Below the pieces are notes generated by a model that searched no databases, was not told where the DNA came from, and saw only the letters and a list, made by a program, of their open reading frames with translations. Shown here in pieces: positions 26,623 to 49,977 of a stretch of DNA of 64,000 nucleotides. The translations under genes and the position numbers were made by a program. Within the stretch, counting starts at the first letter, position 1; every line of letters begins with the position of its first letter. Origin of the DNA: a virus (taxonomy: Duplodnaviria; Heunggongvirae; Uroviricota; Caudoviricetes); the IMG/VR virus record IMGVR_UViG_3300015177_000008, positions 47,519 through 111,518 of that record, one strand, 5' to 3'.

Positions 26623-27717
26623 ATGTCCACAAAAAATAAAAAAGGTAAAAATAACAAAGAAGTAGAAGATAATCTCGACAACTTTGAAGAAGGTTCCCTT
26701 GAATTGTACACAGGGGAACTTGTCCCTAATAGCAACAATACAGTCCAACCAATTGCGTTGATGCGGCTGGGATTGTTCGTGCCCACGCTCAAGGGGACAA
26801 AATACAGCAAGCGTAACAAGCCAAATGAGATCGATGCTTCAAAGGAGCTTGTTCAGCTCGAAGTAGCCCGTTCTGAAGGCTATTCCGATATCAAGATAAC
26901 CGGTCCTCGTCTCGACATGGATCATGATTTCAAAACGTGGGTGGGCGTTGTGCGTTCGCTGGCAGAATACGGCGAACCTAACGGTCGTGTCGAGTTAAGC
27001 ATCACGAAATTTGCGAAGTTTTGTGGCTATCCATCGTCACAGATCCGCAAAACACTCCGCGACCGGCTTACAAACAGTCTTTTGAAGATCATGCGTACAA
27101 CTCTGTCTTTCCAGAGAACATATGAAGAAAAGAACGTCGACGGCTCTAACAAGATCTCGCTTCTGATGGTGCACCTCATCAATAGCGTGGACTACAACGA
27201 GCAGAAAGATACGGTGGTGTTCTATGCAGAACCGAAGCTGGCCGAACTATATCGCTTTGACCATAAGGTTCTTTTGCAGTTAAAGGTTATCAATAAGCTA
27301 CCACGCAAAGAAACAGCACAGGCTCTGTACACCTTCATCGAAAGTCTTCCAACCAAGCCTGCGCCGGTGTCGCTTGCTCGATTGCGTGCGCGACTCAATT
27401 TGAGTAGCAGGAATGTCAGCTCGCAGAATCAGACTATACGCAACGGCTTAAAAGCTCTCCAAGATTTGGGCTATCTCGAATACAGCGAGATTAAGCGAGG
27501 GCGGTCGATCTATATCCAGATTCACAGCCGTAATCCAAAACTTAAAGTCGCACCGCCAAAACCTGAAGACATCGAACCCAAAAAAACAGATGAGAAAGCC
27601 GGGGAAATTGATGCTAAACAGAACATTATCAACAAGATAACTGAGCTTTCGCAGAATTTGACGCCTGAAAATATCAAGATGATTGAGATCCTTTCCAATA
27701 GTCTCAAACTGCTTTGA
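26623..27717 (+). CDS. repA: Iteron-type plasmid replication initiator (RepFIB-like)
   Basis: ATG at 26623 after AAGGTG; motifs TVQPIALMRLGLFVPTLK, ITGPRLDMDHDFKTWVG, LYTFIESLP, SLARLRARLNL match RepFIB-type RepA as I recall it; flanked by iterons. Track ORF starts upstream inside the iterons. Confidence 0.8.
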   Translation: MSTKNKKGKNNKEVEDNLDNFEEGSLELYTGELVPNSNNTVQPIALMRLGLFVPTLKGTKYSKRNKPNEIDASKELVQLEVARSEGYSDIKITGPRLDMDHDFKTWVGVVRSLAEYGEPNGRVELSITKFAKFCGYPSSQIRKTLRDRLTNSLLKIMRTTLSFQRTYEEKNVDGSNKISLLMVHLINSVDYNEQKDTVVFYAEPKLAELYRFDHKVLLQLKVINKLPRKETAQALYTFIESLPTKPAPVSLARLRARLNLSSRNVSSQNQTIRNGLKALQDLGYLEYSEIKRGRSIYIQIHSRNPKLKVAPPKPEDIEPKKTDEKAGEIDAKQNIINKITELSQNLTPENIKMIEILSNSLKLL

Positions 27718-27718
27718 T

Positions 27719-28250
27719 ATGCTGTCAGCGGTGAAATGTATGCTATCAGCGGCTATTTTTCTGAAAAGTATGCTGTGAACGGTTAAAGATATGCTACCAG
27801 CGGTATAGTGAGATGAACGTATGCTGTGAGCGGTAAATCATCTATCACCACTCAATGCTCTGTCATACCTCCCCAGTGGTTACTAACCTCGAAGAGTGCA
27901 TTCCATATAGGTTTGCGCTCACTAACATTCTATTGCTATTGCGCTGATTGCTTGTAGTGAAAGGCATTTATTGCCTGCTGCTCCCTGATAGAACGTATGC
28001 TGTCAGCGGTGTTTTATTGAGGAATTTTTGTTTGGATATGCTATCAGCGGTAATTAATGGTATATGTCAGACCTTCGTATGCTGCCAGCGGTAATTTTGT
28101 TCTGGTTATACCCATACCGGTACACATTATTCATGCAATGTCTTAAGTATGCTGTCAGCGGTAAAAAATCGAGTAAAGTATGCTGTGAGCGGTGAGATAG
28201 ACTCTCGATATGCTATCAGCGGTAGTTGATTGTGTATGCTGTCAGCGGTG
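27719..28250. repeat. Iterons, downstream set (at least 11 copies)
   Basis: tatgctgtcagcggt and variants (tatgctatcagcgg, tatgctgtgagcggt, tatgctgccagcggt) spaced about 20-35 bp apart, with a 160-bp gap. Confidence 0.75.
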
Positions 28251-28296
28251 ACGACTATGAAATATGACTGCGGAACGTGCCGCAGTCAGTTTGCAT

Positions 28297-28509
28297 TTAG
28301 TGTATTTTCTTTAACAGACCCCAAAGTGTTCCGGCTTTTGTAGTCAGTTTTCCTGTTTCTGGATCGTACATACGCCATTCACGCCGCTGGTGGACGATAT
28401 ACCCATCTTCACGTTCCAGACGCTCAAGAATGCCAGGTTGCTTGAAACCCTTAGCACGCCAGTAGCCGCTTGTTTTCTCGATTTCCAGACCTGCCAGTGT
28501 TAATGCCAT
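28297..28509 (-). CDS. Hypothetical protein (70 aa)
   Basis: ORF; start overlaps the upstream stop. Confidence 0.4.
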   Translation of the reverse strand: MALTLAGLEIEKTSGYWRAKGFKQPGILERLEREDGYIVHQRREWRMYDPETGKLTTKAGTLWGLLKKIH

Positions 28510-28844
28510 TATTCAACCTCCTTGCAGTCATCGAAAAGGTAGCTTTGCTGAGAAGCGTGAACGCCATAGAAGCCCTTGTATTTGTTGTATACGAAGTGGT
28601 CTTCTCCGACGCCGGTTAATTTGCCATTACGGTTTGTGAGATATGGGGATGACAACACTCGATCGTCACGCACAACATAGAACTGGTCGCCGCTGTCTAC
28701 GACCATCGCTCCATATGGTGCTTTTATGACGTCGGTAAGAGCGCCATTCTTAACGTCGGCTACAGACATTTCACACTGATAAACAGTGGTGTCGGCCACA
28801 ACGATCGAAGAAAGGAACAACAGCGCGAATGGGATGGCCTTCAT
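28509..28844 (-). CDS. Hypothetical secreted protein
   Basis: N-terminal signal-peptide-like MKAIPFALLFLSSIVVA. Confidence 0.45.
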   Translation of the reverse strand: MKAIPFALLFLSSIVVADTTVYQCEMSVADVKNGALTDVIKAPYGAMVVDSGDQFYVVRDDRVLSSPYLTNRNGKLTGVGEDHFVYNKYKGFYGVHASQQSYLFDDCKEVE

Positions 28845-29020
28845 GCTGCCACCTCTTTGATTACATCAAATGCTGAATTAAATACGAGCACGATAGCCAA
28901 AGCGTTTATGACTACGTCGTTCACCGGGGAAAAGACTTTACGAATGACACCGGTGAAAATGCAGTCGATGACAAAAGCTATTGAAACGATGAGTAACAAG
29001 TATTCAATAAAAATCTTCAT
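28841..29020 (-). CDS. Small membrane protein (59 aa)
   Basis: ATGA overlap with the downstream gene; two hydrophobic segments; below track cut-off. Confidence 0.3.
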   Translation of the reverse strand: MKIFIEYLLLIVSIAFVIDCIFTGVIRKVFSPVNDVVINALAIVLVFNSAFDVIKEVAA

Positions 29021-29059
29021 GATAGGTAGATACTAACTTATATAAATTTTACTGTAAAC

Positions 29060-29335
29060 TCACTCAAAAGTGCTGATGCTTAAAATACGCTCAAGATGTG
29101 CGGCATCTTCATCACTGATTTGTTGAGTCTCTTCTACGTACCAACAGTTGCCGTTATGCCAACAAACACCATCATCATCAACCATCACTGAATCAGCGTC
29201 ATGACCTGTATATTCAACGAGAATACGCTGGATCAGCGCGTCAGTTTCTTCGTCGTTAAGGCCATCGGCTTTGACCATAAAAACCGGAAACACGTCATAG
29301 ACAGTGCTGGTAACGATTCGAACTAAAACTCTCAT
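29060..29335 (-). CDS. Hypothetical protein
   Basis: 91 aa; start context GGAAAAACACATG. Confidence 0.4.
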   Translation of the reverse strand: MRVLVRIVTSTVYDVFPVFMVKADGLNDEETDALIQRILVEYTGHDADSVMVDDDGVCWHNGNCWYVEETQQISDEDAAHLERILSISTFE

Positions 29336-29390
29336 GTGTTTTTCCTTTTGTGGTTAGTGTTTACTTATTTTGTTAGTTATGAATAGGCGA

Positions 29391-29816
29391 TCAATCTTCT
29401 TGTTTAGGGAAAAACTGTTCAATAACTCTGTCAACGGCTGTGTCTATATGGAGTAGATGCCACACAACCATATCTTTGCTTCCCATGCCTTGTGTGAATA
29501 TCACGTCATACTTACGCCATGCGCAGTGGAACCAATATGCTGAGTCATCAATTGGTAAATCCTCTCCCGCCTCTTTGAAGTATTTCAGCAGCATTGCCTG
29601 CTCTGCCGTTGGCGTTGGGCCTATTTCCTGAGCGTACATACGGATGAATCGCTGCCAGTCTGTCTCGTCGGGAGTTGGATCTGGTGGATTCATTTCGGCG
29701 ATAGCTTTTCGCAGCTGATGCGCCCAATCAGGTTCAGGAAAGCCTTTTGCTACTTCATCATCAATAACATCCAGAGCCACGTTTGCGGCATCGTAGAGTT
29801 TCTTAATAGCTGTCAT
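29391..29816 (-). CDS. Hypothetical protein
   Basis: 141 aa; class-1 palindrome and a terminator upstream. Confidence 0.45.
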   Translation of the reverse strand: MTAIKKLYDAANVALDVIDDEVAKGFPEPDWAHQLRKAIAEMNPPDPTPDETDWQRFIRMYAQEIGPTPTAEQAMLLKYFKEAGEDLPIDDSAYWFHCAWRKYDVIFTQGMGSKDMVVWHLLHIDTAVDRVIEQFFPKQED

Positions 29817-29832
29817 GTTTTCTTAACCCTTT

Positions 29833-29846
29833 AAACAAGTTGTTTT
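29833..29846. promoter_or_regulatory. Class-1 palindrome (putative operator)
   Basis: aaacaagttgtttt between the terminator and the 29391..29816 start. Confidence 0.45.
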
Positions 29847-29864
29847 CTTAATAGGATAATTGCG

Positions 29865-29890
29865 ATAAAAAAGGCGTCCAACTGGACGCC
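29865..29890 (-). terminator. Rho-independent terminator
   Basis: Minus-strand GGCGTCCAGTTGGACGCC followed by TTTTTTAT, downstream of the SPFH gene. Confidence 0.6.
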
Positions 29891-29907
29891 TGAACTTTTA
29901 AGGGGAG

Positions 29908-30738
29908 TTATTTCACTGTAATGAAAGGAGTGTTAGCCCCTTGAGTCATGTACTGCGGTAACTGGCCATTCCATTTATTGATGGCTTCCAGCTCCATAAC
30001 GTTCGGGTTTTGACGCAGAGCTTCACCGCGCAGACGAATGGCGTCTGCTTCTGCTTGCGCACGAGCACGGATAGCATCAGCTTCACCATTAGCCTGTTCA
30101 CGCAGCATATTCGCCTCAGCTTTACGTTGTTCAACTTCCTGCTGACGTTGCAGAGTACGCTGGTTAGCCGTTACTTTGGCGTTAATAGATTCAATGACGG
30201 TTTTTGGGTAATCAGGCTTTCCAACCCATGACAAGCTCAGTACCTCAATACCAACCGGAGACATCTCTTTCTGAATATCTTTCAGTGCGTTGTCCAGCAA
30301 TTGTGCCTTACCACCGTCGATAAATGAGTCAGTGGTCATACGGCTGGCCAAACGGTTTAGAGAGTCGGCAATTTTCTGACGCAGATCTGATTCGGTGATA
30401 TCGTCTACGCCTTTGCGATAGGTCTGGAACACCGTCGTTACCTTGTCACGATTAACCAGATACGCAACGCCAATTTTGTGACCAATAGCAGTACCGTCAC
30501 TCATCTGGAATGTGAACGGCTCGTCGTAGGTCTTCATTTGTTTGAAGGTCGGGAATACGTAAAGTTCGGTGTTAAGACCTGTCCATTGGCGACCAACGCC
30601 AACCACTTCACCAATCCCTTTGTCTTCACCTAATTTGTTTACTTTGATGCCAACGTATCCAGACTCCACGCGATCGCAGCCAGTAAGACCCATTGTGCAA
30701 ATAGCCGCCAGAGCAACTGCAAGTAAACCTTTCTTCAT
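29908..30738 (-). CDS. SPFH/band-7 (stomatin-prohibitin-like) lipoprotein
   Basis: Lipobox LTGC after a signal peptide; SPFH-like core and Ala/Glu/Arg-rich coiled-coil C-terminus. Confidence 0.6.
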   Translation of the reverse strand: MKKGLLAVALAAICTMGLTGCDRVESGYVGIKVNKLGEDKGIGEVVGVGRQWTGLNTELYVFPTFKQMKTYDEPFTFQMSDGTAIGHKIGVAYLVNRDKVTTVFQTYRKGVDDITESDLRQKIADSLNRLASRMTTDSFIDGGKAQLLDNALKDIQKEMSPVGIEVLSLSWVGKPDYPKTVIESINAKVTANQRTLQRQQEVEQRKAEANMLREQANGEADAIRARAQAEADAIRLRGEALRQNPNVMELEAINKWNGQLPQYMTQGANTPFITVK

Positions 30739-30741
30739 TAC

Positions 30742-30942
30742 TTATTTCCCCTTTGCTTTGATTAATGAGTTGATAAACTTACGACCAGCAATAAGACCGA
30801 TTACAGGAGCACCAAAACCAACGATAACTCCAAACATGACGGCTAAATCACTCTTGGTAGAAATCAGCGACGGAACCAGTAATCCGTAGATGAGAGCCAC
30901 TGAAAGGCCTGTGGCTACTGCCAATAGATAGATTTTGATCAT
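30742..30942 (-). CDS. Small two-TM membrane protein
   Basis: 66 aa hydrophobic ORF immediately upstream of the SPFH gene in the same operon. Confidence 0.4.
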   Translation of the reverse strand: MIKIYLLAVATGLSVALIYGLLVPSLISTKSDLAVMFGVIVGFGAPVIGLIAGRKFINSLIKAKGK

Positions 30943-30973
30943 GTGTTTTCCTATGTGGTTGTTATGTGAAAAT

Positions 30974-30990
30974 GATAAGTAAGTACTTAT
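30974..30990. promoter_or_regulatory. Class-2 AT-rich palindrome
   Basis: gataagtaagtacttat upstream of the 30742..30942 start. Confidence 0.35.
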
Positions 30991-31034
30991 ATATTTTCAA
31001 GAAATAAAAAAGGCGTCCTGTGGACGCCTTGTGT

Positions 31035-33374
31035 TTACTCTTCTACTGACTCGGTGGGATTGTCTTTTGATCTCCGGTCGTCGATTGCCTGTAAAGCCGC
31101 AATGATTTCAGCTAGTGGCTTCTCCCGATACATCTCGACGATCTGTGATTTGGTGTATTTCTTGTCACCAATTTCTACTCGACCGCTGGCGTTCTTTGGC
31201 AGGTATCCTTCTTCCAGCATGTACTCGACGAGCGACTCGATAACGTCGAGGCCACGAGTAGGATCGAAGTAGAATTTCCAGGTGCATTTGCCATACGGTG
31301 GTGCAACTTTGTTTTTGATGCACTCTGCGCCTACGTCCTGACCGATCTTCTCTTTCCCATCCTTCATCACCGATGCACCGAGACGGATGCGCACAGAAGC
31401 GTAAAACTTCGGTGAATCGCCGCCTGGAGACGTAGTAGGGTCGCCAAACATTACACCGATTTTTGTGCGAACCTGATTCAAGAAGATGATGCAGGCGTTG
31501 TATTTGCGTGCCCACAAAGCCAGAGTGGGGAAGTTCGCACTCGTCGCACGAGCCAGCGCCGTATTGTCGTTCATGTTTAGCTGATCTTTGTCTTTGGCAG
31601 TGCCTTCAGCCATCTTTTCGAACTTCTCGGCTTTGGAGTTCGGAACCATAGACGCAAGTGAGTCAGCCACGATACAGATAGGTGCTGATTCAGGAATAAG
31701 CTCTTCATCACGTACCAATTTAAGAATTGTGCCGATCAACTCTACAGAGTCTTCGAAGGTATCAGGCTGCTTGTATACCCACTGACCGTCATCCTCATCT
31801 GCATTCAAACCATTGGCTACAGCCAGGCCAACGTCAAAACTGTTTTCATGATCGAGGAATACCGCCAGACCATCTTGTTTTTGAGCGGAGATCATCGCTG
31901 CTGTTGCAAGGAATGTGTTGTGGCTGATAATCCCGTTAGACCAGAAAGAGTGTGTTTCCGGCATCGCTACGTCGAACGTTGGTGCTTCACCTTCCTCAAT
32001 AGCCACGACTTCGTCGTAGAACAAGTTAGAGCCAATTACCGCTGCCAGTTGTGCAAACAGATGCTCGTTAAAACGATTCTTTCTGCCAATGAAGGAGACA
32101 TAGATTTCTCGCAGTTTGTCTATTCCGACACGATCGCCGCGGCCAATAACGTGGTCTACCAGAGCGTAGTCTTCACGGGTGGTCTTGGTGAGCGACTCGT
32201 AGAGTGATTTCACTAAGCCGCTGATGTGCGGAACATAGCCTGAGTAAGTGCGGTCAAAACCAATGTCCCGTTTGGTTGCCACTGATAAACGTGCCGGAGA
32301 TTCGAAACCAATCGTTGACAGAAAAAGGTCGTAATTAGAGCCACTGAATGACAGCCGGTAATATGTATTTTCATAACCCGCGACGTGTTTTTCAGAGATA
32401 GTTGACGTAATCCCCAGATTCAGGAGCATGAGGCGAATTTGCTGTAGCAGCAGCCCACTCGCGCTCACAACCTCAATGCAGCGACCATCATTGACGTGGC
32501 ATTCCAGCTCAAAGTAGCCGCGAAGGAATGCAATTTGAGCCTCGCTATTGGCGCGACGCACACTCAACGGAACCTGCTTGCCAGCAGCTTTCTCATACTC
32601 CAGACCATATTCTTTAAAAAGCAGCGAACGCACCTCTTTGCTAAACAGCACATGGTCTTCCGAGCCGTTATGTTTTCTCGTAACTGGCATCTTGTCTGAT
32701 ACCAGCGAAATGAGGCGGTAGTACTCATCCTTGATGAAAGGATCTGTGTTAGAAAAATTCACTGAATTTTCAGAGGCCACGTATCCGTCAGCAATTAAAT
32801 AGCCCATCAGTTTTGCGATATTGGCATCCAGGTGCTGATCGCCGAATTGATGTGTGCCAACCATTGAAGGAATCGTGTCGCCTACACTGATTTTTTCAGC
32901 ATGTCGCCAGACGACATTACCTAAGTCGTCAACCACACGGATTGGGTGACGGAACGTAGCCTCGATATAACCGCCTGATGCCAGCTTAATACGCTTGAAT
33001 TTGCGACGGTTGTTCCATGTCAGGTGTGAGGTCTTCTCTATCACGCCATTTTCATTGATGAGTCCAACGTTATGCTCTACATCGCGAGTAGTGCATGTCG
33101 CTTTGTACCCTTCAATCTCAAACAACTCTTTCACTGTTACCATTCCACGCTCCGTCAGCAGCATGGTGTCTGCGGTAACACATTTCCCCGCACTTGGAGG
33201 ACCGAATACTTCGACGATACGACCACATGGGAAGCCGCCATCGTAACGACCAGAAATAGCTTTGTTTAACGGTGGAAAGCCTGTATCAATCCAATGAGTT
33301 ACTTTCTGAATTTCGTCGTTGCTACCGATTTTCTTTTTCAGAGCAAGTGCCAGTGCGGATTTTCCTTTTGCCAT
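31035..33374 (-). CDS. recA: RecA-family recombinase interrupted by an intein
   Basis: Exteins GRIVEVFGPPSAGK...TFLATAAM and FLNQVRTKIGVMFGDPTTSPGGDSPKFYASVRIRLGA resemble RecA; a 422-aa insertion splits the Walker A motif. Confidence 0.8.
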   Translation of the reverse strand: MAKGKSALALALKKKIGSNDEIQKVTHWIDTGFPPLNKAISGRYDGGFPCGRIVEVFGPPSAGKCVTADTMLLTERGMVTVKELFEIEGYKATCTTRDVEHNVGLINENGVIEKTSHLTWNNRRKFKRIKLASGGYIEATFRHPIRVVDDLGNVVWRHAEKISVGDTIPSMVGTHQFGDQHLDANIAKLMGYLIADGYVASENSVNFSNTDPFIKDEYYRLISLVSDKMPVTRKHNGSEDHVLFSKEVRSLLFKEYGLEYEKAAGKQVPLSVRRANSEAQIAFLRGYFELECHVNDGRCIEVVSASGLLLQQIRLMLLNLGITSTISEKHVAGYENTYYRLSFSGSNYDLFLSTIGFESPARLSVATKRDIGFDRTYSGYVPHISGLVKSLYESLTKTTREDYALVDHVIGRGDRVGIDKLREIYVSFIGRKNRFNEHLFAQLAAVIGSNLFYDEVVAIEEGEAPTFDVAMPETHSFWSNGIISHNTFLATAAMISAQKQDGLAVFLDHENSFDVGLAVANGLNADEDDGQWVYKQPDTFEDSVELIGTILKLVRDEELIPESAPICIVADSLASMVPNSKAEKFEKMAEGTAKDKDQLNMNDNTALARATSANFPTLALWARKYNACIIFLNQVRTKIGVMFGDPTTSPGGDSPKFYASVRIRLGASVMKDGKEKIGQDVGAECIKNKVAPPYGKCTWKFYFDPTRGLDVIESLVEYMLEEGYLPKNASGRVEIGDKKYTKSQIVEMYREKPLAEIIAALQAIDDRRSKDNPTESVEE
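31917..33182 (-). mobile_element. Intein with LAGLIDADG homing-endonuclease domain inside recA
   Basis: Starts with Cys directly after GPPSAGK, ends ...SHN followed by Thr; LAGLIDADG-type blocks LMGYLIADGYV and LRGYFELECHV. Confidence 0.7.
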
Positions 33375-33376
33375 GA

Positions 33377-33649
33377 TCAGGCTCCTTTTGTTTCGTTGAT
33401 TCGTTTTAAAGCGGCGGATTCATCGAATACAATCGCATCGTGGTTAAGGAGTCTGGATACACGAGCGAGGATTTTTACGACTTGCTCGCTGACTAATCCA
33501 AACTCGCGATCTGTCGCTTTCATTCCGACAGCGCCCAGAATTGACGGCAGTGCGATGACAGCGTACTCACCGTGATAAAAGACAATCTCTTTTGCCAGTT
33601 GGGCAGGGGTGGTTGTAGCGCCATTGATAATCGATTTAAGCATTAGCAA
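33377..33649 (-). CDS. Hypothetical protein
   Basis: 90 aa ORF; overlaps neighbours by a few nt. Confidence 0.4.
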   Translation of the reverse strand: MLMLKSIINGATTTPAQLAKEIVFYHGEYAVIALPSILGAVGMKATDREFGLVSEQVVKILARVSRLLNHDAIVFDESAALKRINETKGA

Positions 33650-34638
33650 TACCTTTCGAATGGAAGAACAAACACTTCAAGGTCTTCAAGGAACGAACGG
33701 AAATTCAGCTCGTAGCACAGTTGCTCGAATGCTTTCACGTCACGATTGCCTTTGATTGTTTCGATTTCGGTAGGCGGAAACTTCGTCTCAATCAGGTTCA
33801 TTAGCGTGATGTTTCTCTTGAACGCTTCGAGCATTCGACAGCCTGTTTTCTCGTTGAAGGCATTCTTCGCTAGTTTGTTGAAGGCGGTCTTATGACGCCC
33901 TTTATTAACCACGATTGAGCCGTCGTTGATGCCGCGTACCATCGTTGCGACACTTCCCCATTCATGCAGCAGCTCTTTCGCACCGCCAGCACCAATGCCA
34001 CCAACACCGCTAATGTTGTCCGAGTTATCGCCTTGTAATGCTTTTGCTTCCAAAAATGCGCGAGGCGTGGCGAATCCTGTCAGCTCCGCAAATTGCTCAA
34101 AATTAACCTGCTTGTTTTTGGCGTCTTCACGCAGGCTTACCCAGCTTACGTTTTCACGAACTAACTGAAGCCAGTCGCTATCGCCTGTTAACAGATAGAT
34201 GTGTTCAACGGTTGGCTGCGGTGCCATGCGGGATACCAGCAGCCCGGCCAGATCATCCGCTTCTGCATCTTTTGCAATGAGTTGGGTAACTCCAAGCGCG
34301 GTCATCATTTTGAGGATGTATGGCTTCTGGATAGCAAAGCCTTCCTTCATCTTTTTCATATCAGGATCGCCGTCGCGATTTGCTTTGTAGTCCGGGTAAA
34401 AGTCGCGACGCTTGTCACTAAATCCATCCCAAAGAATCATAGGTCGGGCATGGAGGATGGAGGCATAACGACGGACGTTCTTAACAAAGCCGAAAGCAGC
34501 CTGTACTTCCATTTCGCCGTTGTGCAATTTGTCAGATTGTTGATGGTAATAACCCAGGCTATTGCCATCTACGAAGAGATAATTCACCGGTACATTCCTT
34601 CCAAAAAGTAAGGCGTCCGTAGACGCCTTACTGGTCAC
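33643..34638 (-). CDS. 5'-3' exonuclease / flap endonuclease
   Basis: FEN-type motifs VDGNSL, EADDLAG, GDSDWLQL and a helix-hairpin-helix-like GVGGIGAGGA. Confidence 0.8.
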   Translation of the reverse strand: MTSKASTDALLFGRNVPVNYLFVDGNSLGYYHQQSDKLHNGEMEVQAAFGFVKNVRRYASILHARPMILWDGFSDKRRDFYPDYKANRDGDPDMKKMKEGFAIQKPYILKMMTALGVTQLIAKDAEADDLAGLLVSRMAPQPTVEHIYLLTGDSDWLQLVRENVSWVSLREDAKNKQVNFEQFAELTGFATPRAFLEAKALQGDNSDNISGVGGIGAGGAKELLHEWGSVATMVRGINDGSIVVNKGRHKTAFNKLAKNAFNEKTGCRMLEAFKRNITLMNLIETKFPPTEIETIKGNRDVKAFEQLCYELNFRSFLEDLEVFVLPFERYC

Positions 34639-34647
34639 GTAATGGGA

Positions 34648-35676
34648 TTACAGAGAGTCCAGCTCTCTCAGTAGGTCATCCAGACCTTCATCTTCCGTCG
34701 CAGATGCGGTTGCTACAGATGTCGCTGCGACTGCTTCAGACTCTTTGACTGATACGGCAACGGCAGCGGAACTTGCCTCTGGTTTAAATTCAGTTTCAAC
34801 GGCACGGAGGATTTCTTCATCAACCAGACTGGTTGGTTCAGAAGCCGGTGTGTGCGCGGTTGCTACAGCCGTCGCTCCTTCTGTATGACCAGTGACAGAG
34901 CCAAATCCAGGTAGTGCCGCAGCCGATGTTTTCGCGGTTGAGGAAATTGCTGGTGCAGATGCTGCGGCAGTTGGTGCAGCGATGCCAATCAGACGACCCA
35001 TAGTGCGAACTGTCGACAGAAGACGAGTTTCATCAGCCTGATTTGCGTATGCGATCAGATCATGCTGGGTGTTCCAGAATTTATCTTCGATATCGCCTTT
35101 GTAGACTTTACGCTTAGGCGAGACGTCATATTTGGTATCGCGACCAGAGCCAGTACGTTTAATCAGGAATGCGTAGCCTTCCTCTTTGCTCAGTGGATTG
35201 CCGATATCATCAGCGATGTCTTCGGTGATTGCTTTGCAGATATCATCGAATACAGTAGACGGCAGCTCGATTAACTGGCATTTCTCAGCATCTGCGAAAT
35301 CCTCACGAGCAGAAAGAATGCCGTTGACCAGGTAGCGAGGAGTGGCACGCATTTGACCGATGCGTTCTTCCATTGCTTTGTTACCCTTGTGACGAGCGCG
35401 ACCTTCCATAACCATTTCGCATAGCTGACAAGCGCGACCGTGAGTATGTTGCTCACAAATATAAGCGTTGGTTGCTTCTTTACCTTCCTCGTTCTGATAC
35501 TTAACGTAGTGCATACCGAAAGTCTGGAAGAACTTACCGTTTGGGTCGTCTTTATTCGGGAAGATGCGGATATAGTTGACGCCGTCTTTTAAGCGAGTCA
35601 GATCAACGTTGTTGCCACGTTTGGCGGCAATGTCTTCACGAGTTTTGTTAAGCAAATCAAGTAATGTCTTAGACAT
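34648..35676 (-). CDS. Single-stranded DNA-binding protein-like (putative)
   Basis: Cys/His cluster (CEQHTHGRACQLCE), Ala/Ser/Thr-rich linker and acidic C-terminal tail DEGLDDLLRELDSL. Confidence 0.4.
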   Translation of the reverse strand: MSKTLLDLLNKTREDIAAKRGNNVDLTRLKDGVNYIRIFPNKDDPNGKFFQTFGMHYVKYQNEEGKEATNAYICEQHTHGRACQLCEMVMEGRARHKGNKAMEERIGQMRATPRYLVNGILSAREDFADAEKCQLIELPSTVFDDICKAITEDIADDIGNPLSKEEGYAFLIKRTGSGRDTKYDVSPKRKVYKGDIEDKFWNTQHDLIAYANQADETRLLSTVRTMGRLIGIAAPTAAASAPAISSTAKTSAAALPGFGSVTGHTEGATAVATAHTPASEPTSLVDEEILRAVETEFKPEASSAAVAVSVKESEAVAATSVATASATEDEGLDDLLRELDSL

Positions 35677-35759
35677 GTGTTTCTCCTTGTTGTGATTTGG
35701 CCGATGGCGCTATGCGCGTTGGGCTTTCGTTCATTCGTGGCTCTTTCGAGCTGTTAAAT

Positions 35760-35788
35760 GATAGATCAGTACTTACTTATTATCTATC
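35760..35788. promoter_or_regulatory. Class-2 AT-rich palindrome
   Basis: gatagatcagtacttacttattatctatc upstream of the SSB-like gene. Confidence 0.35.
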
Positions 35789-35793
35789 AAAAA

Positions 35794-36225
35794 TCAACGG
35801 GGAGTAATAAAGCGTTCAGAGCCTAATCGCTCTAATTCAACGATGGCCATCTTTGACGCCTGAACGATCATGTCTCGGCGATGCGAAAAGGCGGCGACAG
35901 CATGTTTGTATATGTCTGCGATGTGCCGTGCTTCATCCAACTTCTGCCGTTTAGACAGATACTGTGGGTTTGTTTTAACCTTAGCGTCCAGTACAGACTC
36001 GTTGAACTTAATGCCGTTCATACTCAAGTTCTTACGCTCTGTGTCGTATAGCTTTGCTTCAACAGCTTCAAGGTTAAGTTTTGCCTCTGCGACATCTCGA
36101 TCTGCCTGCGCTAGTTTTGACCCATACTCCATTAAAAGCCGTGGCTGTTTACGCCATACTTCCTCAAGGTTGTCGCGGTCGAACTCCAGATCGGCCATGA
36201 TTTTAGAAAAAATATCAGTGTTCAC
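35794..36225 (-). CDS. Hypothetical protein
   Basis: 143 aa ORF. Confidence 0.4.
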   Translation of the reverse strand: MNTDIFSKIMADLEFDRDNLEEVWRKQPRLLMEYGSKLAQADRDVAEAKLNLEAVEAKLYDTERKNLSMNGIKFNESVLDAKVKTNPQYLSKRQKLDEARHIADIYKHAVAAFSHRRDMIVQASKMAIVELERLGSERFITPR

Positions 36226-36433
36226 TCTAATAGGTTCCTACTTATAAAATCTGTATCAATTATATCAAACAGAGAACGGGTTTATGGCGTCATGTCAACT
36301 TTGTTCAGGGGAAAATATTGAGATCACCGAAGATAATTAGTTGTCTTATTTTGGTAAGCTGTGCTGACCATCTTTAGGTCACATACATGAGATGGATGGG
36401 GGTGTGGCATGAACGGATGAAATTCAGTCGCCG

Positions 36434-36462
36434 TTGACAGATGTCAACACTGTGAATAGAAT
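36434..36462 (+). promoter_or_regulatory. Sigma70-like promoter with palindrome over the -35
   Basis: TTGACA - 17 nt - TAGAAT; the -35 sits inside the palindrome ttgacagatgtcaa; GGAGG and ATG follow at 36480. Confidence 0.5.
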
Positions 36463-36479
36463 ACTATTATCGGAGGCGA

Positions 36480-36704
36480 ATGAAGCAACATCCGAATAAG
36501 CATATTCAAGCAGCCATTGACTATGCATTAAGTAAAGGCTGGATCTGGGTAGCAGCTGGTGGTGCTGCACATTGTTTTTGCAGACTGCGATGCGGTAATC
36601 CAGAAGGTGAACACAAAACTCACCAAATGAGCGTATGGTCGACTCCGGGTAATCCCGAAAACCATGCCAAACAGATCAAACGAATGGTTGATCGTTGTAA
36701 ATGA
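36480..36704 (+). CDS. Small basic protein, possible HicA-like toxin
   Basis: 74 aa; KGW...AH...HKTH pattern loosely like HicA; first gene of a two-gene plus-strand insert. Confidence 0.3.
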   Translation: MKQHPNKHIQAAIDYALSKGWIWVAAGGAAHCFCRLRCGNPEGEHKTHQMSVWSTPGNPENHAKQIKRMVDRCK

Positions 36705-36764
36705 TTTCAAGGCGGCATTAGCCGCCTTTTGCAGAAACTGTCCAACTATCTTCAAAGGAAAACT

Positions 36765-37328
36765 ATGGCGCTTTATAACTTCACTCTGACGCTCTCAGGC
36801 GTATCGTATGAGACGGAAGGACTGGAAGACGCGCTGTACCAAAACGGCTGTGACGATGCGCTAATTTGCGCATATGGAAACTCCGTCTATGTAGAATTTG
36901 ACCGCGAAGCACAATCACTTGATGCAGCTATCGCATCTGCGGTCGACAATATTGAATCAGCCGGTATCGGTGCAATTGTTGAATCCGTCGACTCGGCTCT
37001 TGTGGGCTTAAGCGATATCGCGGAACTGACAGACCTGTCTCGCCAGGCAGTGGCGTTGCTCAAAGACGGTAAGCGCGGAAGCGGCGACTTCCCTTGCCCT
37101 GTACAACGCATAAAAGGCCAGTCTCCTCTCTGGGATTGGGCTGATGTGGCTGAATGGCTCATGAATAACGGACGACTTAAAGAGGGCGATCAAATTGTCC
37201 AAAATGCCCGAACTTTGAGTAAATGGAATCTGGCGCTTCGAAACAGCGTCTCGAAAGATTTCAACGAAATAGAGCAAATTGCGGAGAAACTGATTAAACG
37301 CCGCAAAGATATTGCGAAATGCGCATAA
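36765..37328 (+). CDS. HTH-containing protein, possible HicB-like antitoxin
   Basis: ATG at 36765 after AAGGAAAA; helix-turn-helix LSDIAELTDLSRQAVALLKDGKRG; terminator-like hairpin atgcccgccaattggcgggcat follows. Confidence 0.35.
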   Translation: MALYNFTLTLSGVSYETEGLEDALYQNGCDDALICAYGNSVYVEFDREAQSLDAAIASAVDNIESAGIGAIVESVDSALVGLSDIAELTDLSRQAVALLKDGKRGSGDFPCPVQRIKGQSPLWDWADVAEWLMNNGRLKEGDQIVQNARTLSKWNLALRNSVSKDFNEIEQIAEKLIKRRKDIAKCA

Positions 37329-37657
37329 TGATGCCCGCCAATTGGCGGGCATCTGTTCTCTGTAAAGGTGTCTGGCATCGTCTGGTTCGTTAACGTTTAC
37401 TAAACCAATGGTGACAAAAATTAGTTATCTTTGAAAAATAAAGGTTGCATGAAAAGAAGGGGTATGCGTTAATAGCATCGTTGGTTTGCAAGACAGACCT
37501 TATGTAAGCAGTTTTAGTAAAGCAGTCTCAGTTCAGTGTTATCTTCTGATTTCCCTTCTTCGTGAGTCTCCTCCTTAAGTGCCTAAGTAAGTCCCAATCT
37601 ATACAGATCAAATTCTCGCCGCACTATGTGGCTCACAAAATTAAGAAGGTAATATCT

Positions 37658-37873
37658 ATGTCTAATAAAATGACTGGTTTAGTAAAATGGTTTAACTCTG
37701 ATAAAGGCTTTGGCTTTATTTCTCCTGCTGATGGCAGTAAAGATGTTTTTGTACATTTTTCGGCAATTCAGAGTAATAATTTCCGCACTTTGGAAGAAGG
37801 CCAGCAGGTCGAATTCTCTATCGAGAATGGGGCTAAAGGCCCAGCAGCAGCAAATGTCGTTGCTCTAAGCTGA
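37658..37873 (+). CDS. Cold-shock protein, CspA family
   Basis: [38 protein letters not shown]... (RNP1/RNP2 motifs); long 5' leader of about 160 nt; track ORF starts upstream. Confidence 0.85.
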
Positions 37874-38151
37874 TTCAACGCTGATGATCCTCATTTCTAC
37901 AATAACGAAGACGGTGTAAGCCTGAGTGGATAGATTTGTAGGATTGTACAAGTTGAATAAATTAGCATGGTAAGGCCATGCTAATTAAATCGACACAACG
38001 GCCAGTTTATTCCATAAAAGTGAATTGCCCATTGTGGCGAAATGCGGGGTTGCCGCATGAATAGTCAAAGGCAGAAGCTAACTGCCGGCATGGCAAAACA
38101 AAGTGCGTAAGAGGAGTGACTTCCTCAACAAGCGCCATAATTCTTTATAAA

Positions 38152-38178
38152 CCCGCCAACAGGCGGGTTTTCTTTATT
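38152..38178 (+). terminator. Rho-independent terminator
   Basis: cccgcc aaca ggcggg followed by ttttctttatt; abuts the dnaE stop on the other strand. Confidence 0.5.
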
Positions 38179-41100
38179 ACTTATTTATTGTCTCCGCGAT
38201 ATCAGCCAGAATGGCCTCCAGTCGCTCTCCTTCTTCCGGTCGGAAGTACAGGATATTCGGGTTAAATCCGTAGAAGACGGTTGCATCAAGCTCTGGGAAG
38301 TACTCCTTACGACCAATCAGATCTGATGGTTTACTCTTATTGTTAAATAGTGCGGTTGAACGACTACCACACGTCAAAATGTAGGTTGGTCGTACAAGAT
38401 TAATTTCTTCCCGCATAAAGTCTGTGAACTGGCCTATCTCGTCTTTGGTATAGTCTTTCTCTTTGTCCTTAACCTTCTTACAAACACCCGTGACATAAAG
38501 ATCGCCCATGCGCAGATCTCCAACTGTCAGTAGTTTTGCCTTAAAGTCGTCGTATCCGTTCTCCATGAAGTAGCCGGTACGAGCGTCATTGCCGTTCGCA
38601 TTGTCCAGAATGATCATGATTTTGGGTTTAATACCAATAGTCGGGCGTATCAACTCCTCACCCAAGCCCATTTCAGCCGCCATACGTGTCATGAGTACGT
38701 TGATTTCGGCAGAACGCTTAGGATTCATTTCGAACGGACGTGATGCTTTAACAGCGTCAATGATGAGATTGCCCATCAGCTCAGCCTGGTCGCGCAGTCG
38801 TTCAGGATCAGTTGCTGGCAGACTGCCTGGCTCAATTGACGCAAAAGCCCCTACTTTATGAAGCGACTCGCGTACACGACTGTTACATGCACGCTTCTCG
38901 ACCGCTTCATCGAATTGTGCCACTGACTCGAATTTGCCACCAACTTTCTCACGCGCACGCATAATTGCCTGACAACCATTTTCAGAACAGCCTTTCACAG
39001 CAGAGAATGGCGCATACAGTGCCTGACTGCCGTCTTCGAGTGTGCGGATCTCAATTCGGTTAGATGACACATTAACGTCTGGTGGCAATACGCGAATGCC
39101 ATAGGTCAGCGCATCCTTCACCAGCCCCTGATGCTTATCCTCGCCCAGAATGGTGAGCGCAGCTGCGAAGAACTCAGCAGGGTAGTGCGTCTTTAGCCAC
39201 ATAGACTGATAACTGATTAAAGAATAAGCAACGGAGTGTGATTTATTGAACTGATAGGCTCCGTTTTTCTCAAATGCGGTCCAGATCTCCTTCGCTTTCA
39301 TCTCTGATAGCCCTGGATGTGACGCTGTAACGCGTACTGCGTTTATAGGTAGTTTTGCGCCGTGCTCAAGTGCCTCTTCGACAGTTTTCAGAGTTCCGTC
39401 TTCGCATTTAAAATGTTCCGCACGGTGAATGCGCTGTGTAGTGCCATCTTCCAGCTCAACGTCTATCCAGCCAGCTTGAGCCTGAACGATGAACTTCTCG
39501 CCCATGCTCTTCATTTTTTCCATGTTCTTCTTACCGATTGCGGAACGCACAGCGTCAGCTTCAGCCATTGTGAAGCCGGCAAGCAATCGAGTCGCGTTCA
39601 TCGTCTGTTCCTGATAGAGAATCACGCCATTTGTTTCCGCGGTAAGTTTATCAAGAACGGGGTGTAATGATTCCGGCGTCATAAAGCCTTTGGCGACAGA
39701 AACATAGTCATCCAACATGCCTGATTGAATTGGCCCCGGCCGGAAGAGCGCAGTTGTAGCGACGACCGTTTTAAAGCTCATTGGCTCAATTCCACCACCT
39801 AAATCTTTAAGCAGCTTGCGCATTGGGCCTGATTCAAGCTGGAAAACACCTTGAGTGTACCCAGCAGCAAAACCATCCAGCACCTTGCGATCTTCAAGAG
39901 AAATGGCATCAAGATTGATATCTTCACCTGTGTTCTCTTTTATGTAGCGTTTTGCACTATCGAGCAAATCGAGAGTTGCCAGGCCAAGCACGTCCAGCTT
40001 AATTAGGCCCATAGCCTCGCAGTAACGCTTGTCAAATGCGATACAACGCGCGTCACCACGGCGCTCAACCGGTGTACGTTCTGTCAGAGGAACACCTGCT
40101 ACGATCATCCCTGCCGCATGTCTACCAAAGCCACGCATAAGGCTTTGTAACTTGCAGGCTGCATTGAATGCATCAGGATATTTTGTTGCGTATTTGTCGA
40201 GACTTGCCAGTTGTTCGCGCAGTTCTTCCAATGGAAGGCTATCATCCTCAGCGTTCTTCAGTTCTTTTGATACCGCCATATCTGCGGACTCCACACCATA
40301 AATACGAGCGGTGTCACGTAGTGCAGAGGCTGCGCCCAGGTAGGTGAAGTTCGGAATGCCTGCAACGTAATCTTCGCCGTAGCGTTCATTCAGATACTCG
40401 ATCACCTCATGGCGACGTGCCTGGCTGAAGTCCAAATCCGCATCTGGCAAGTCGAGACGCTCAGGGTTGATGAAACGCTCAAACAGAAGACCGTGACGGA
40501 TTGGGTCGACGTTGGTTATGCCTATGCACCACGCCACCAGAGAACCGGCAGAGGAACCACGACCAGGCCCAACGGGAATGCCAGTTTCACGACTATGATT
40601 CATCAGATCGCGCACCATCAGGAAGTAACCACAGAATCCCAGGCGAGTCAGCGTGTCCATTTCGTACTTTAGCCGCTCAACATAAACCCTGTTCTCAGAA
40701 GCAGGTGGTGTGTATCCAAACTCTTTTGTGGTAAGACGTTTACGCAGCCCTGCAACAGCCAGTTTCATAAGCGTTGCAGGCTCGTCGTCTGCCATCTTTG
40801 GCAGTGCTGGCGGCAATTCATGCCAGCGCCATGTGCAGGCATCGATAATGGTATCCTGCGTTGTTGAGGCCATTGCAGCTGTTACCGGCACATCCATGCG
40901 AACGGAGAAGGCTTTAAGCGCCTCAAGGAGATGGCGGCGACCATTGACGGCGTTATCTCGCTGGTGGGGGATACGCAGACGATGCGGCTGGTCGATTTTG
41001 ATGTTGTTCGTAACCATGTGCGCAATGTCTTTAATGTCTGCATCGTCGATCGATTCGTAATAAGCGGGATAGAACGCCACTGGCTCTATTTTCAATGCGC

Positions 41101-41695: not shown

Positions 41696-41873
41696 GTGTT
41701 TTTACCTTTCTGGTTTTTTTGATTTTGTCATTGGGGAAGCCTACGAACTTCCCATGCATCGAAATCGCAACTTCTTTTGCTGATTGGTGACAATCGGGCT
41801 TGTCTGGACACACCAGACAAGCCTTACCAGTTTCAGAAGCAGCGATAAGAGAGCCGAAACATCCTTTACGCAC
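41670..41873 (-). CDS. Small Cys-rich protein (possible zinc ribbon)
   Basis: 67 aa with C-x-x-CPDKPDC; overlaps the dnaE start by 26 nt. Confidence 0.3.
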   Translation of the reverse strand: MRKGCFGSLIAASETGKACLVCPDKPDCHQSAKEVAISMHGKFVGFPNDKIKKTRKVKTHEGTDGSN

Positions 41874-41875
41874 GA

Positions 41876-49897: not shown

Positions 49898-49899
49898 GT

Positions 49900-49975: not shown

Positions 49976-49977
49976 AT

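What the first reader, a model, noticed from the sequence alone, without database searches (positions are those of the whole stretch)
31035..33374. RecA-family recombinase split in its P-loop by a 422-aa LAGLIDADG intein
The Walker A motif reads GPPSAGK-[C...HN]-T: the insertion begins with Cys, ends with His-Asn and is followed by Thr, restoring GPPSAGKT after splicing. Two LAGLIDADG-type blocks are present inside. Recombinase activity would depend on protein splicing, and the intein is a potential homing element.
Basis: partly seen in the sequence, partly recalled or inferred. Interest (0 to 1): 0.65.

Follow-up and report, generated by a model that had tools for sequence, protein, structure and literature searches.

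The report
Known intein in phage-plasmid RecA

Summary
Observation confirmed in every detail. The minus-strand ORF 31035-33374 (779 aa) reads GPPSAGK|C…SHN|T. The 422-aa insert (window 31917-33182) matches Pfam Intein_splicing and LAGLIDADG_3, has blocks A, B, C, E, F and G, and its model folds like full-length archaeal inteins (TliVMA, PI-PfuI).

An intein-less allele in Escherichia phage CMS-2020a equals the in-silico spliced product at 356 of 357 residues, so the insertion is exactly 1266 nt between Lys64 and Thr.

It is already known. Topilina et al. 2015 list this RecA intein as site "c2 (65-486)" in E. coli, Enterobacter and Salmonella, and RefSeq names some copies "intein-containing recombinase RecA".

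- The gene was found only on plasmids, which where examined are SSU5-like phage-plasmids: 251 of 5426 complete E. coli genomes, none chromosomal, and 114 of them carry the intein.
- The intein is 97-99.9% identical across extein lineages that are only 76-86% identical (dS about 0.09 against 1.0-2.2).
- Invaded alleles carry roughly 8-nt synonymous co-conversion tracts.
- dN/dS is 0.2 in the endonuclease region.

This is the signature of recent, probably ongoing homing. Splicing and cleavage remain untested. Low novelty, modest interest.

The parts
31035..33374 (-). Precursor ORF, 779 aa (86.6 kDa): RecA-like recombinase with the intein
   Evidence: The exact protein is seen on 452 public contigs.
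33382..33387 (-). Shine-Dalgarno AAGGAG, 7 nt before the ATG. The upstream ORF's stop codon (TGA, 33377-33379) lies 2 nt before the ATG.
   Evidence: read directly
33183..33374 (-). N-extein, aa 1-64, ending in the first seven Walker A residues GPPSAGK (33183-33203)
31917..33182 (-). Intein, 422 aa (47.5 kDa), precursor aa 65-486; 1266 nt absent from the empty alleles
32853..33182 (-). N-terminal splicing (HINT) part. Block A has Cys1 (33180-33182). Block B is TFRH, with Thr76 and His79 (32946-32957).
   Evidence: NCBIfam intein_Nterm TIGR01445, 35.5 bits against a cut-off of 24.5
32028..32852 (-). LAGLIDADG endonuclease domain plus DNA-recognition region (intein about 111-385)
   Evidence: Pfam LAGLIDADG_3; Foldseek matches to TliVMA, PI-TkoII, PI-PfuI and I-DmoI; dN/dS 0.20
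32778..32819 (-). LAGLIDADG motif 1 (block C), IAKLMGYLIADGYV, with acidic residue Asp132
   Evidence: conserved in relatives
32493..32537 (-). LAGLIDADG motif 2 (block E), QIAFLRGYFELECHV, with acidic residue Glu227
   Evidence: conserved in relatives
31917..32027 (-). C-terminal splicing part. Block F is PTFDVAMPETHSFWSNG. Block G is IISHN, with His421 and Asn422.
31035..31916 (-). C-extein, aa 487-779 plus the stop codon. It starts with the +1 nucleophile Thr487 (ACA, 31914-31916), which completes Walker A, and holds the rest of the RecA core (Walker B, L1/L2).
31010..31030 (-). Intrinsic-terminator-like hairpin (9-bp stem, 6 G-C pairs, T tail) directly after the stop codon, so recA closes the recombination operon
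33377..36225 (-). Upstream genes of the same strand block (context): small ORF 33377-33649, 5'-3' (FEN-type) exonuclease 33643-34638, T4 gp32-like SSB 34648-35676, UvsY-like mediator 35794-36225
   Evidence: PHROG matches; annotation of phage Cyrano

Best explanation
This is a bona fide class-1 intein with an embedded double-motif LAGLIDADG homing endonuclease. [quoted passage not shown] The inferred sequence of events is as follows. The 86.6-kDa precursor is translated with its P-loop split, so it cannot bind ATP. Cys1 makes the N-S acyl shift, Thr+1 attacks the thioester, Asn422 cyclises with help from His421 and block F, and an O-N shift joins Lys64 to Thr. This gives a 39-kDa recombinase with an intact GPPSAGKT and a free 47.5-kDa intein. 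The free intein would then cut intein-less recA alleles of related phage-plasmids at the empty site whenever two elements share a cell. Repair from the intein-bearing copy then copies the intein in, together with a few flanking nucleotides. The anatomy, the exact boundaries, the fold and the population signature of recent horizontal spread are shown here. The chemistry of splicing and the DNA cleavage are inferred.
For: - **Sequence and domains.** Searches give the ORF, the junctions and the Pfam hits. Blocks A, B, C, E, F and G and their catalytic residues are located and are conserved in relatives.
- **Fold.** The AlphaFold2 model has pLDDT 80.7 and pTM 0.84. Its best PDB matches are full-length inteins: TliVMA 7qss (E 3.8e-21, TM 0.71), PI-TkoII, PI-PfuI and PI-SceI. 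Mini-inteins match the splicing part and I-DmoI the nuclease part. A sequence-only PDB search gives the same families.
- **Exact empty site.** The CMS-2020a allele equals N-extein plus C-extein at 356 of 357 aa. The spliced product aligns without a gap to E. coli RecA over GPESSGKT.
- **Polymorphism.** 114 of 251 E. coli plasmids with the gene carry the intein, and none of the 253 places is chromosomal. In PLSDB 248 plasmids carry the intein DNA, out of 645 that match the gene.
- **Horizontal spread.** The intein is 96.8-99.9% identical in extein backgrounds that are 76-86% identical. Each invaded allele has an intein-less partner that is 97-99% identical in the exteins. Intein dS is about 0.09 against 1.0-2.2 for the exteins.
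- **Co-conversion.** All seven intein-bearing alleles examined have ACA TTC CT after the intein, and six of the seven have GCG GGG AAA before it (ET350 has GCA). The empty alleles keep lineage-specific synonymous codons there.
- **Constraint.** dN/dS is 0.15 for the intein and 0.20 for the endonuclease region.
- **Literature.** Topilina et al. 2015 list the same intein. The intein-bearing phage-plasmid Cyrano is a working, inducible phage.
Against: No experiment on this intein was found in the searchable literature, so splicing and cleavage are unproven.

The second LAGLIDADG motif ends in Cys rather than Gly.

The last 14 residues of the model, including block G, have low confidence.

The dN/dS estimates rest on only about 38 substitutions per comparison.

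No complete E. coli genome holds two such plasmids at once (251 records in 251 genomes), so the co-residence that homing needs must be transient.

Ordinary homologous recombination between phage-plasmids does occur in this gene, as the chimeric ET350 and RHB17 alleles show. It could account for part of the spread.
Confidence: 0.85

Rival explanations
1. The intein still splices, but its endonuclease is no longer active. The present distribution would then reflect past homing followed by vertical descent and ordinary homologous recombination among mosaic phage-plasmids.
For: Crossovers inside and next to the intein exist (ET350, RHB17). Motif 2 has Cys in place of the final Gly. More distant family members have visibly decayed endonuclease regions (P0007, P0012, P0013). 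No co-resident plasmid pairs were seen.
Against: The intein variant shared by the Klebsiella, Enterobacter and Citrobacter-type backgrounds is 99.8-99.9% identical, while their exteins are about 84% identical. The conversion tracts stop within about 8 nt of the junction in three separate lineages, which generic recombination would not produce repeatedly. Both acidic residues and the block-D Lys are kept. dN/dS is 0.20 in the nuclease region.
Confidence: 0.12
2. The intein is kept because it acts as a conditional switch. Splicing would be held back or released by temperature, redox state or DNA damage, so that the recombinase becomes active only at a given stage, such as lytic induction. This is compatible with the best explanation rather than exclusive of it.
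For: Extein-controlled conditional splicing was shown for the Pyrococcus horikoshii RadA intein at the same P-loop point (PMC4513877). The intein has four Cys residues (1, 30, 228, 235) and the N-extein has Cys50. The gene sits in a recombination operon of an inducible phage-plasmid.
Against: About half of the E. coli elements do without the intein, and Yersinia pMT1 never has it (0 of 63). No feature specific to regulation was found here. The population pattern is fully explained by selfish homing.
Confidence: 0.1
3. The insert is a non-splicing inserted domain or an inactivating insertion, so the gene is in effect a pseudogene in the elements that carry it.
For: None specific. RefSeq names the whole protein only 'LAGLIDADG family homing endonuclease'. 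The recombinase may be dispensable, since one E. albertii plasmid has it broken by an IS element.
Against: All nucleophiles and assisting residues of a class-1 intein are present. The reading frame is intact in the seven intein-bearing alleles examined, and the same 779-aa protein occurs on 452 public contigs. Boundaries are exact to the codon. The fold is that of splicing-competent inteins.
Confidence: 0.03

Closest known systems
Enterobacterial RecA intein, insertion point c2 (Topilina, Novikova, Stanger, Banavali & Belfort 2015, NAR 43:6631, Table 1: E. coli MS 145-7, E1520, HVH 43, HVH 139, KOEGE 10 and others; Enterobacter cloacae BWH 29; Salmonella enterica 557928)
   Same: It is the same object: intein residues 65-486, in the P-loop, in E. 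coli, Enterobacter and Salmonella 'RecA'. [quoted passage not shown]
   Different: That paper treats the host as bacterial RecA and never mentions phage (0 occurrences). Here the gene is found only on plasmids, which where examined are SSU5-like phage-plasmids, and it fails the RecA equivalog cut-off. The homing signature was not described there.
Pyrococcus horikoshii RadA intein (site c1; PDB 4e2t)
   Same: It has the same insertion point, after the Walker A lysine and before Thr, in a RecA-superfamily recombinase, with Cys1 and Thr+1. Its HINT fold matches the model (E 2e-5).
   Different: It is an archaeal 172-aa mini-intein with no endonuclease and about 20% identity. Its conditional splicing has been shown experimentally, which this intein's has not.
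Mycobacterium tuberculosis RecA intein PI-MtuI (site a, 252-691) and M. leprae RecA intein (site b)
   Same: They are inteins in a RecA protein whose activity needs splicing. The splicing-domain fold matches (2in0, 5i0a).
   Different: They use different insertion sites and sit in a chromosomal RecA. NCBIfam NF007072, built on that type, scores only 100.8 bits against a cut-off of 1024.
Full-length LAGLIDADG inteins TliVMA (7qss), PI-TkoII (2cw7), PI-PfuI (1dq3), PI-SceI (1vde)
   Same: The architecture is the same: a HINT splicing domain interrupted by a two-motif LAGLIDADG nuclease plus a DNA-recognition region (TM up to 0.71).
   Different: Identity is 10-21%, and the host proteins (V-ATPase, DNA polymerase, RNR) and organisms (archaea, yeast) are different.
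P-loop 'GK|[TS]' inteins in other ATPases (UvsW-like SF2 helicases, DnaB-like primase-helicases, UvrD)
   Same: At 31-35% identity to this intein, they sit at the same point of Walker A (GK|C…HN|T/S). This is the known P-loop hot spot (PMC4760082).
   Different: The host proteins differ. The nearest relatives at 41-48% identity are all RecA or RecA-like.
T4-type UvsX-UvsY-gp32 recombination module
   Same: The gene neighbourhood matches: a UvsY-like mediator, a gp32-like SSB and an exonuclease lie upstream of the recombinase.
   Different: The recombinase is much closer to bacterial RecA (PDB E about 1e-34) than to T4 UvsX (1e-5).

Membership tests
Class-1 intein (HINT domain) | Cys or Ser at intein position 1 (block A) | tested here: met
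   Cys65 of the precursor, in CVTADT
Class-1 intein (HINT domain) | Block B TxxH | tested here: met
   TFRH, with Thr76 and His79; aligned with ATxxHP in relatives
Class-1 intein (HINT domain) | Blocks F and G ending in His-Asn, followed by Cys, Ser or Thr at +1 | tested here: met
   PTFDVAMPETHSFWSNG-IISHN|T
Class-1 intein (HINT domain) | In-frame insertion whose removal restores a conserved host motif, with intein-less alleles existing | tested here: met
   The 1266-nt insertion is absent from CMS-2020a and at least six other alleles, and GPPSAGKT is restored
Class-1 intein (HINT domain) | HINT fold | tested here: met
   AlphaFold2 pTM 0.84; Foldseek hits to inteins only at the top of the list. 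The C-terminal 14 residues are of low confidence.
Class-1 intein (HINT domain) | Protein splicing actually occurs | not testable with these tools
   Needs expression and a western blot or mass spectrometry. No published test was found.
LAGLIDADG homing endonuclease (double-motif, intein-borne) | Two LAGLIDADG motifs, each with an acidic residue at position 8 | tested here: met
   LMGYLIADG (Asp132) and LRGYFELEC (Glu227). Pfam LAGLIDADG_3 matches at 2.4e-17 in two stretches.
LAGLIDADG homing endonuclease (double-motif, intein-borne) | Alpha-beta-beta-alpha-beta-beta-alpha nuclease fold | tested here: met
   Foldseek matches to I-DmoI and to the nuclease domains of PI-PfuI and TliVMA
LAGLIDADG homing endonuclease (double-motif, intein-borne) | Site-specific cleavage of the intein-less allele | not testable with these tools
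   Indirect support only: presence/absence polymorphism, dS 0.09 against more than 1, and short co-conversion tracts
RecA family (Pfam PF00154) | Score above the gathering threshold, with Walker A, Walker B and L1/L2 colinear with RecA | tested here: met
   125.5 bits against a threshold of 27. The spliced product aligns to E. coli RecA at E about 1e-34.
Bacterial RecA orthologue (NCBIfam TIGR02012 equivalog) | Score at or above the curated cut-off of 325.3 bits | tested here: not met
   132.5 bits. The gene is never chromosomal in 5426 E. coli genomes. It is a phage-plasmid RecA-like or UvsX-like recombinase (phrog_97).
RecA intein insertion point c2 (Topilina et al. 2015) | Intein between the Walker A Lys and Thr, at residues 65-486 of an enterobacterial RecA-like protein | tested here: met
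   Coordinates are identical
Mycobacterial RecA inteins (sites a and b; NF007072) | Insertion at RecA residue 251/252 or 205/206, with a score at or above 1024 bits | tested here: not met
   The site is different and the score is 100.8 bits

The most novel reading that the evidence does not exclude
The intein may be caught in the middle of a sweep through the SSU5-like phage-plasmids of Enterobacteriaceae, at 0-82% occupancy depending on host genus. It may also be more than a passenger. Its endonuclease could give intein-bearing elements an edge when two phage-plasmids meet in one cell, by cutting the rival's recombinase gene and converting it. In addition, or instead, splicing could gate the element's own recombination module to a particular physiological state. 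Either would make it a natural, genetically tractable E. coli system for studying intein homing and conditional splicing.
Probability: 0.15. Interest if true: 0.55.

Novelty: already known. Interest (0 to 1): 0.25.

Why it matters
As a discovery it does not matter much. The intein was catalogued in 2015, and the exact protein occurs on 452 public contigs.

It has three practical uses:
- **A natural test system.** Intein-bearing and intein-less alleles that are 97-99% identical coexist in E. coli on inducible phage-plasmids such as Cyrano/pLF82. This is a convenient setting for measuring intein homing, co-conversion and the cost or benefit of a P-loop intein in a model organism.
- **Annotation.** Most RefSeq records name the precursor only "LAGLIDADG family homing endonuclease". 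That hides the element's recombinase and can split one gene family in two in pangenome or typing analyses of phage-plasmids.
- **A crossover point.** The near-identical intein gives diverged phage-plasmid lineages a shared stretch of homology inside recA. At least one chimeric allele (ET350) shows that crossovers happen there.

Tried and rejected
- **Non-intein insertion or chance motif match.** Rejected on domain scores, sequence blocks, fold and the exact empty site.
- **Chromosomal RecA.** Rejected: none of the 253 places in E. coli genomes is chromosomal, and the protein scores below the equivalog cut-off.
- **Membership of the mycobacterial RecA intein groups.** Rejected on insertion site and score.
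- **Other inteins in classic host genes of this window.** I checked the RNR large subunit, Pol III alpha, the DnaB-like helicase, primase, ligase and SbcC. None has intein domains.
- **Literature on this intein in SSU5, pHCM2, Cyrano or phage-plasmid papers, and any experimental work on it.** Nothing was found beyond Topilina 2015 and the general P-loop surveys.
- **The word-indexed protein search.** It returned only 13 hits, so I followed it with the exhaustive HMMER search.
- **Technical problems.** Locus FASTA files did not reach the Python sandbox. I worked around this by building alignment A1 with DNA alignment and reading that file. MAFFT misplaced the N-exteins of the empty alleles in A1, so all identity and junction figures were recomputed from fixed coordinates.
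- **Second structure job.** I did not model the whole precursor, because it would not have changed the conclusion.
Full report
**1. The observation**

The window has a 779-codon ORF on the minus strand at 31035..33374. It has an AAGGAG ribosome-binding site 7 nt upstream of the ATG. A strong terminator-like hairpin follows the stop codon directly.

The translation reads …RIVEVFGPPSAGK|CVTADTMLL…WSNGIISHN|TFLATAAM…. The stretch from Cys65 to Asn486 is exactly 422 residues (window 31917-33182). Removing it leaves a 357-aa protein with an intact Walker A motif, GPPSAGKT.

Pfam finds RecA (3.4e-36), LAGLIDADG_3 (2.4e-17, two stretches) and Intein_splicing (2.1e-11). All three are above their gathering scores.

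**2. What the insert is**

All canonical intein blocks are present:
- Block A: Cys1.
- Block B: TFRH (Thr76, His79).
- Block C: LMGYLIADG (Asp132).
- Block D: a Lys-containing stretch, AAGKQVP.
- Block E: LRGYFELEC (Glu227).
- Block F: PTFDVAMPETHSFWSNG.
- Block G: IISHN, followed by Thr+1.

An AlphaFold2 model built on 11 related sequences has mean pLDDT 80.7 and pTM 0.84. Its best solved-structure matches are full-length endonuclease-bearing inteins:
- TliVMA 7qss (E 3.8e-21, TM 0.71/0.69)
- PI-TkoII 2cw7
- PI-PfuI 1dq3
- PhoVMA 7qst
- PI-SceI

After these come mini-inteins, including the P. horikoshii RadA and M. tuberculosis RecA inteins, and I-DmoI for the nuclease domain. A sequence-only search of the PDB gives the same families.

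The last 14 residues of the model are of low confidence, so block G rests on sequence rather than on the model.

**3. What the host protein is**

The in-silico spliced product aligns without a gap to E. coli RecA through GPESSGKT, Walker B and the L2 region, at E about 1e-34. It is far weaker against T4 UvsX, at 1e-5. The insertion therefore falls between the equivalents of E. coli RecA Lys72 and Thr73.

It is not the cell's RecA. It scores 132.5 bits against the 325.3-bit cut-off of the RecA equivalog model, and it matches PHROG 97, "UvsX-like recombinase". It is also the last gene of a block that encodes a UvsY-like mediator, a gp32-like SSB and a 5'-3' exonuclease.

The surrounding window is an SSU5-type phage-plasmid. 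It carries RepB/Rep3, Pol III alpha, RNR, SbcCD, a DnaB-like helicase, a ligase and three tRNAs. The gene is 100% identical to that of E. coli MLI108K3 plasmid p108_MLI108-3, and the neighbouring 16.5 kb differ by 3 nt before the two sequences diverge.

**4. Empty sites**

Escherichia phage CMS-2020a carries a 1074-nt allele. Its product differs from the spliced window protein at one residue (S347A), and it reads GGG AAA|ACG TTC at the junction. The insertion is thus exactly 1266 nt, in frame, between the Lys and Thr codons.

Among 5426 complete E. coli genomes, 251 carry the gene. All 253 places are on plasmids. Of these genomes, 114 have the full-length intein-bearing form and nearly all the rest have the empty form.

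In PLSDB 645 plasmids match the gene and 248 match the intein DNA itself. By genus, intein-bearing over gene-bearing plasmids are:

| Genus | Intein-bearing / gene-bearing |
|---|---|
| Escherichia | 123 / 231 |
| Klebsiella | 71 / 266 |
| Enterobacter | 41 / 50 |
| Citrobacter | 6 / 10 |
| Shigella | 2 / 8 |
| Cronobacter | 2 / 9 |
| Salmonella | 1 / 5 |
| Yersinia (pMT1) | 0 / 63 |

**5. Evidence that it has been moving**

I aligned seven intein-bearing and seven intein-less alleles (A1). Because MAFFT misplaced the short N-exteins of the empty alleles, I recomputed identities by segment from fixed coordinates.

The exteins fall into three main lineages: E. coli type, Klebsiella type, and Salmonella/Yersinia/Enterobacter type with a related GS04/Citrobacter subgroup. 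They are 76-86% identical to one another. Each lineage contains both intein-bearing and intein-less alleles that are 97-99% identical in their exteins.

The intein, in contrast, is 96.8-99.9% identical across all backgrounds. One variant is 99.8-99.9% identical in Klebsiella, Enterobacter, Citrobacter and E. coli GS04 hosts, whose exteins are about 84% identical to one another.

By the Nei-Gojobori method, synonymous divergence is about 0.09 in the intein against 1.0-2.2 in the flanking exteins of the same gene pairs.

At the junctions, all seven intein-bearing alleles read ACA TTC CT after the intein. Six of the seven read GCG GGG AAA before it; ET350 has GCA. The empty alleles keep lineage-specific synonymous codons there:
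- E. coli type: GCA/GCG GGG AAA|ACG TTC CTT
- Klebsiella type: GCT GGC AAA|ACC TTC CTG
- Salmonella, Yersinia and Enterobacter type: GCC/GCT GGT AAA|ACC TTT TTG

The lineage-specific extein sequence resumes within about 8 nt on either side. These are short co-conversion tracts, as expected from repair of a double-strand break made at the empty site. The repeated, tightly bounded pattern in three lineages is hard to obtain from general recombination.

dN/dS is 0.15 for the intein and 0.20 for its endonuclease region (about 38 substitutions per pair), so the nuclease part has been under purifying selection.

None of the 5426 chromosomes carries the intein, although 114 of those strains hold an intein-bearing plasmid. 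The endonuclease therefore does not seem to invade the host's own recA.

General recombination also acts on this gene. ET350 is a chimera with a crossover inside the intein, and the RHB17 empty allele is chimeric in the C-extein.

**6. Relatives**

An exhaustive HMMER search found 189 representative clusters at E ≤ 1e-30.
- The nearest, at 41-48% identity, are RecA or RecA-like proteins with the intein at the same GK|C…HN|T point. Some are bona fide RecA proteins with the RecA C-terminal domain, and some carry a second intein.
- At 31-35% identity the same kind of intein sits at the same Walker A point of UvsW-like helicases, a DnaB-like primase-helicase and UvrD. This matches the published P-loop hot spot (PMC4760082).
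- Some distant RecA members have lost the first LAGLIDADG motif, as the homing-cycle model predicts.

**7. Mechanism**

Shown here: the anatomy, the exact boundaries, the fold, the polymorphism, the horizontal spread and the purifying selection.

Inferred from the established chemistry of class-1 inteins and LAGLIDADG enzymes:
1. The precursor has Lys64 and Thr487 separated by 422 residues, so it cannot form a P-loop.
2. Cys1 undergoes an N-S acyl shift.
3. Thr+1 performs the trans-esterification.
4. Asn422 cyclises.
5. An O-N shift produces the 39.0-kDa recombinase and a 47.5-kDa free intein (masses).
6. The free intein cuts empty alleles during transient co-residence of two phage-plasmids.
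7. Repair from the invaded copy then copies the intein in.

The intein-bearing phage-plasmid Cyrano (pLF82) forms virions and is induced by genotoxic stress (PMC9928086). The intein is therefore compatible with a working element.

**8. Comparison with what is known, and novelty**

Table 1 of Topilina et al. 2015 (PMC4513877) lists RecA inteins at "c2 (65-486)" in eight E. coli strains, two Enterobacter strains and one Salmonella strain. [quoted passage not shown] The residue numbers are identical to those found here.

PHROG 9666 matches the precursor end to end. The exact protein is on 452 public contigs in a 90%-identity cluster of 1496 members. RefSeq names some copies "intein-containing recombinase RecA". 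The object is therefore already known.

I did not find the following in the searchable literature:
- its plasmid-only location, on SSU5-like phage-plasmids;
- the occupancy figures;
- the dS contrast and the co-conversion tracts;
- any experimental test of its splicing or cleavage.

These are useful additions but would not surprise a specialist.

**9. Verdict**

Novelty: already known. Interest is low to modest (0.25). Its main value is as a convenient natural E. coli system for studying intein homing, and as a note on misleading annotation.

Noticed in passing
window 31035-33374; RefSeq records NZ_CP117002.1 and many others: PGAP names the whole 779-aa precursor 'LAGLIDADG family homing endonuclease' in most E. 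coli and Klebsiella records, and 'intein-containing recombinase RecA' or 'hint domain-containing protein' in others. The recombinase function is hidden, and intein-bearing and intein-less alleles may be split into different gene families in pangenome work.
   Followed up: partly
L008 962-3301 (E. coli ET350 plasmid) and L009 959-2032 (E. coli RHB17-C18 plasmid): Both alleles are chimeric. ET350 has the N-extein and 5' intein of the window type, and the 3' intein and C-extein of the GS04/Citrobacter type, so there was a crossover inside the intein. The RHB17 empty allele has an E. coli-type N-extein and a GS04-type C-extein.
   Followed up: partly
L015 about 1600-2920 (E. albertii p3RM15112, CP043255.1): The recA C-extein is interrupted after …KFEKMAE by an IS3-family element with two transposase ORFs, in a 62-kb, apparently deleted derivative of the phage-plasmid.
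   Followed up: partly
PLSDB CP059946.1 60873-62917 (hit H114) and NZ_CP147598.1 (hit H132): In CP059946.1 the intein match comes in two pieces spanning 2045 nt, so about 780 nt are inserted inside the intein. A K. pneumoniae plasmid carries a more divergent intein variant, at 92.8% identity.
   Followed up: no
E. coli CPww7 plasmid NZ_CP075717.1 / NZ_CP116971.1 (hits H27, H71): Only query positions 43-1466 match, that is the C-extein plus the 3' part of the intein, and the feature is annotated 'hypothetical protein'. This is a truncated copy on a 162-165-kb plasmid.
   Followed up: no
window 18470-20785, 38177-41695, 55621-56961: The RNR large subunit, Pol III alpha and the DnaB-like helicase are the commonest intein hosts in bacteria, but they carry no intein here. 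RecA is the only invaded gene found among the ten large ORFs checked.
   Followed up: yes
window 49449-50052: There are three tRNA genes on the minus strand: Ser(tga), Thr(tgt) and Asn(gtt). tRNA-Thr(tgt) reads ACA, the Thr+1 codon that travels with the intein. This is probably coincidence.
   Followed up: no
window about 36480-37328 and 37658-37873: Just upstream of the recombination operon lie a HicA/HicB-like toxin-antitoxin pair and a cspG cold-shock gene, according to the annotation of the matching records.
   Followed up: no
window 43178 onward against NZ_CP117002.1: The window matches p108_MLI108-3 with 3 mismatches over plasmid nt 1-16555 (window 26623-43177). It then diverges or shifts near the AAA-ATPase/CobT-like genes, so the window comes from a mosaic relative and not from that plasmid itself.
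   Followed up: no
proteins P0034, P0046, P0085 (about 1140-1150 aa) and P0007, P0012, P0013: Some RecA proteins from other organisms carry this P-loop intein plus a second intein (P0034, confirmed; the other two are inferred from their length). Others retain the intein but with a degenerate endonuclease region.
   Followed up: partly
protein P0016 (cluster member): One near-identical 779-aa protein is recorded on a contig of 2.72 Mb. This may be a chromosomally integrated copy or an assembly chimera. It contrasts with 0 chromosomal places in the complete E. coli genomes.
   Followed up: no
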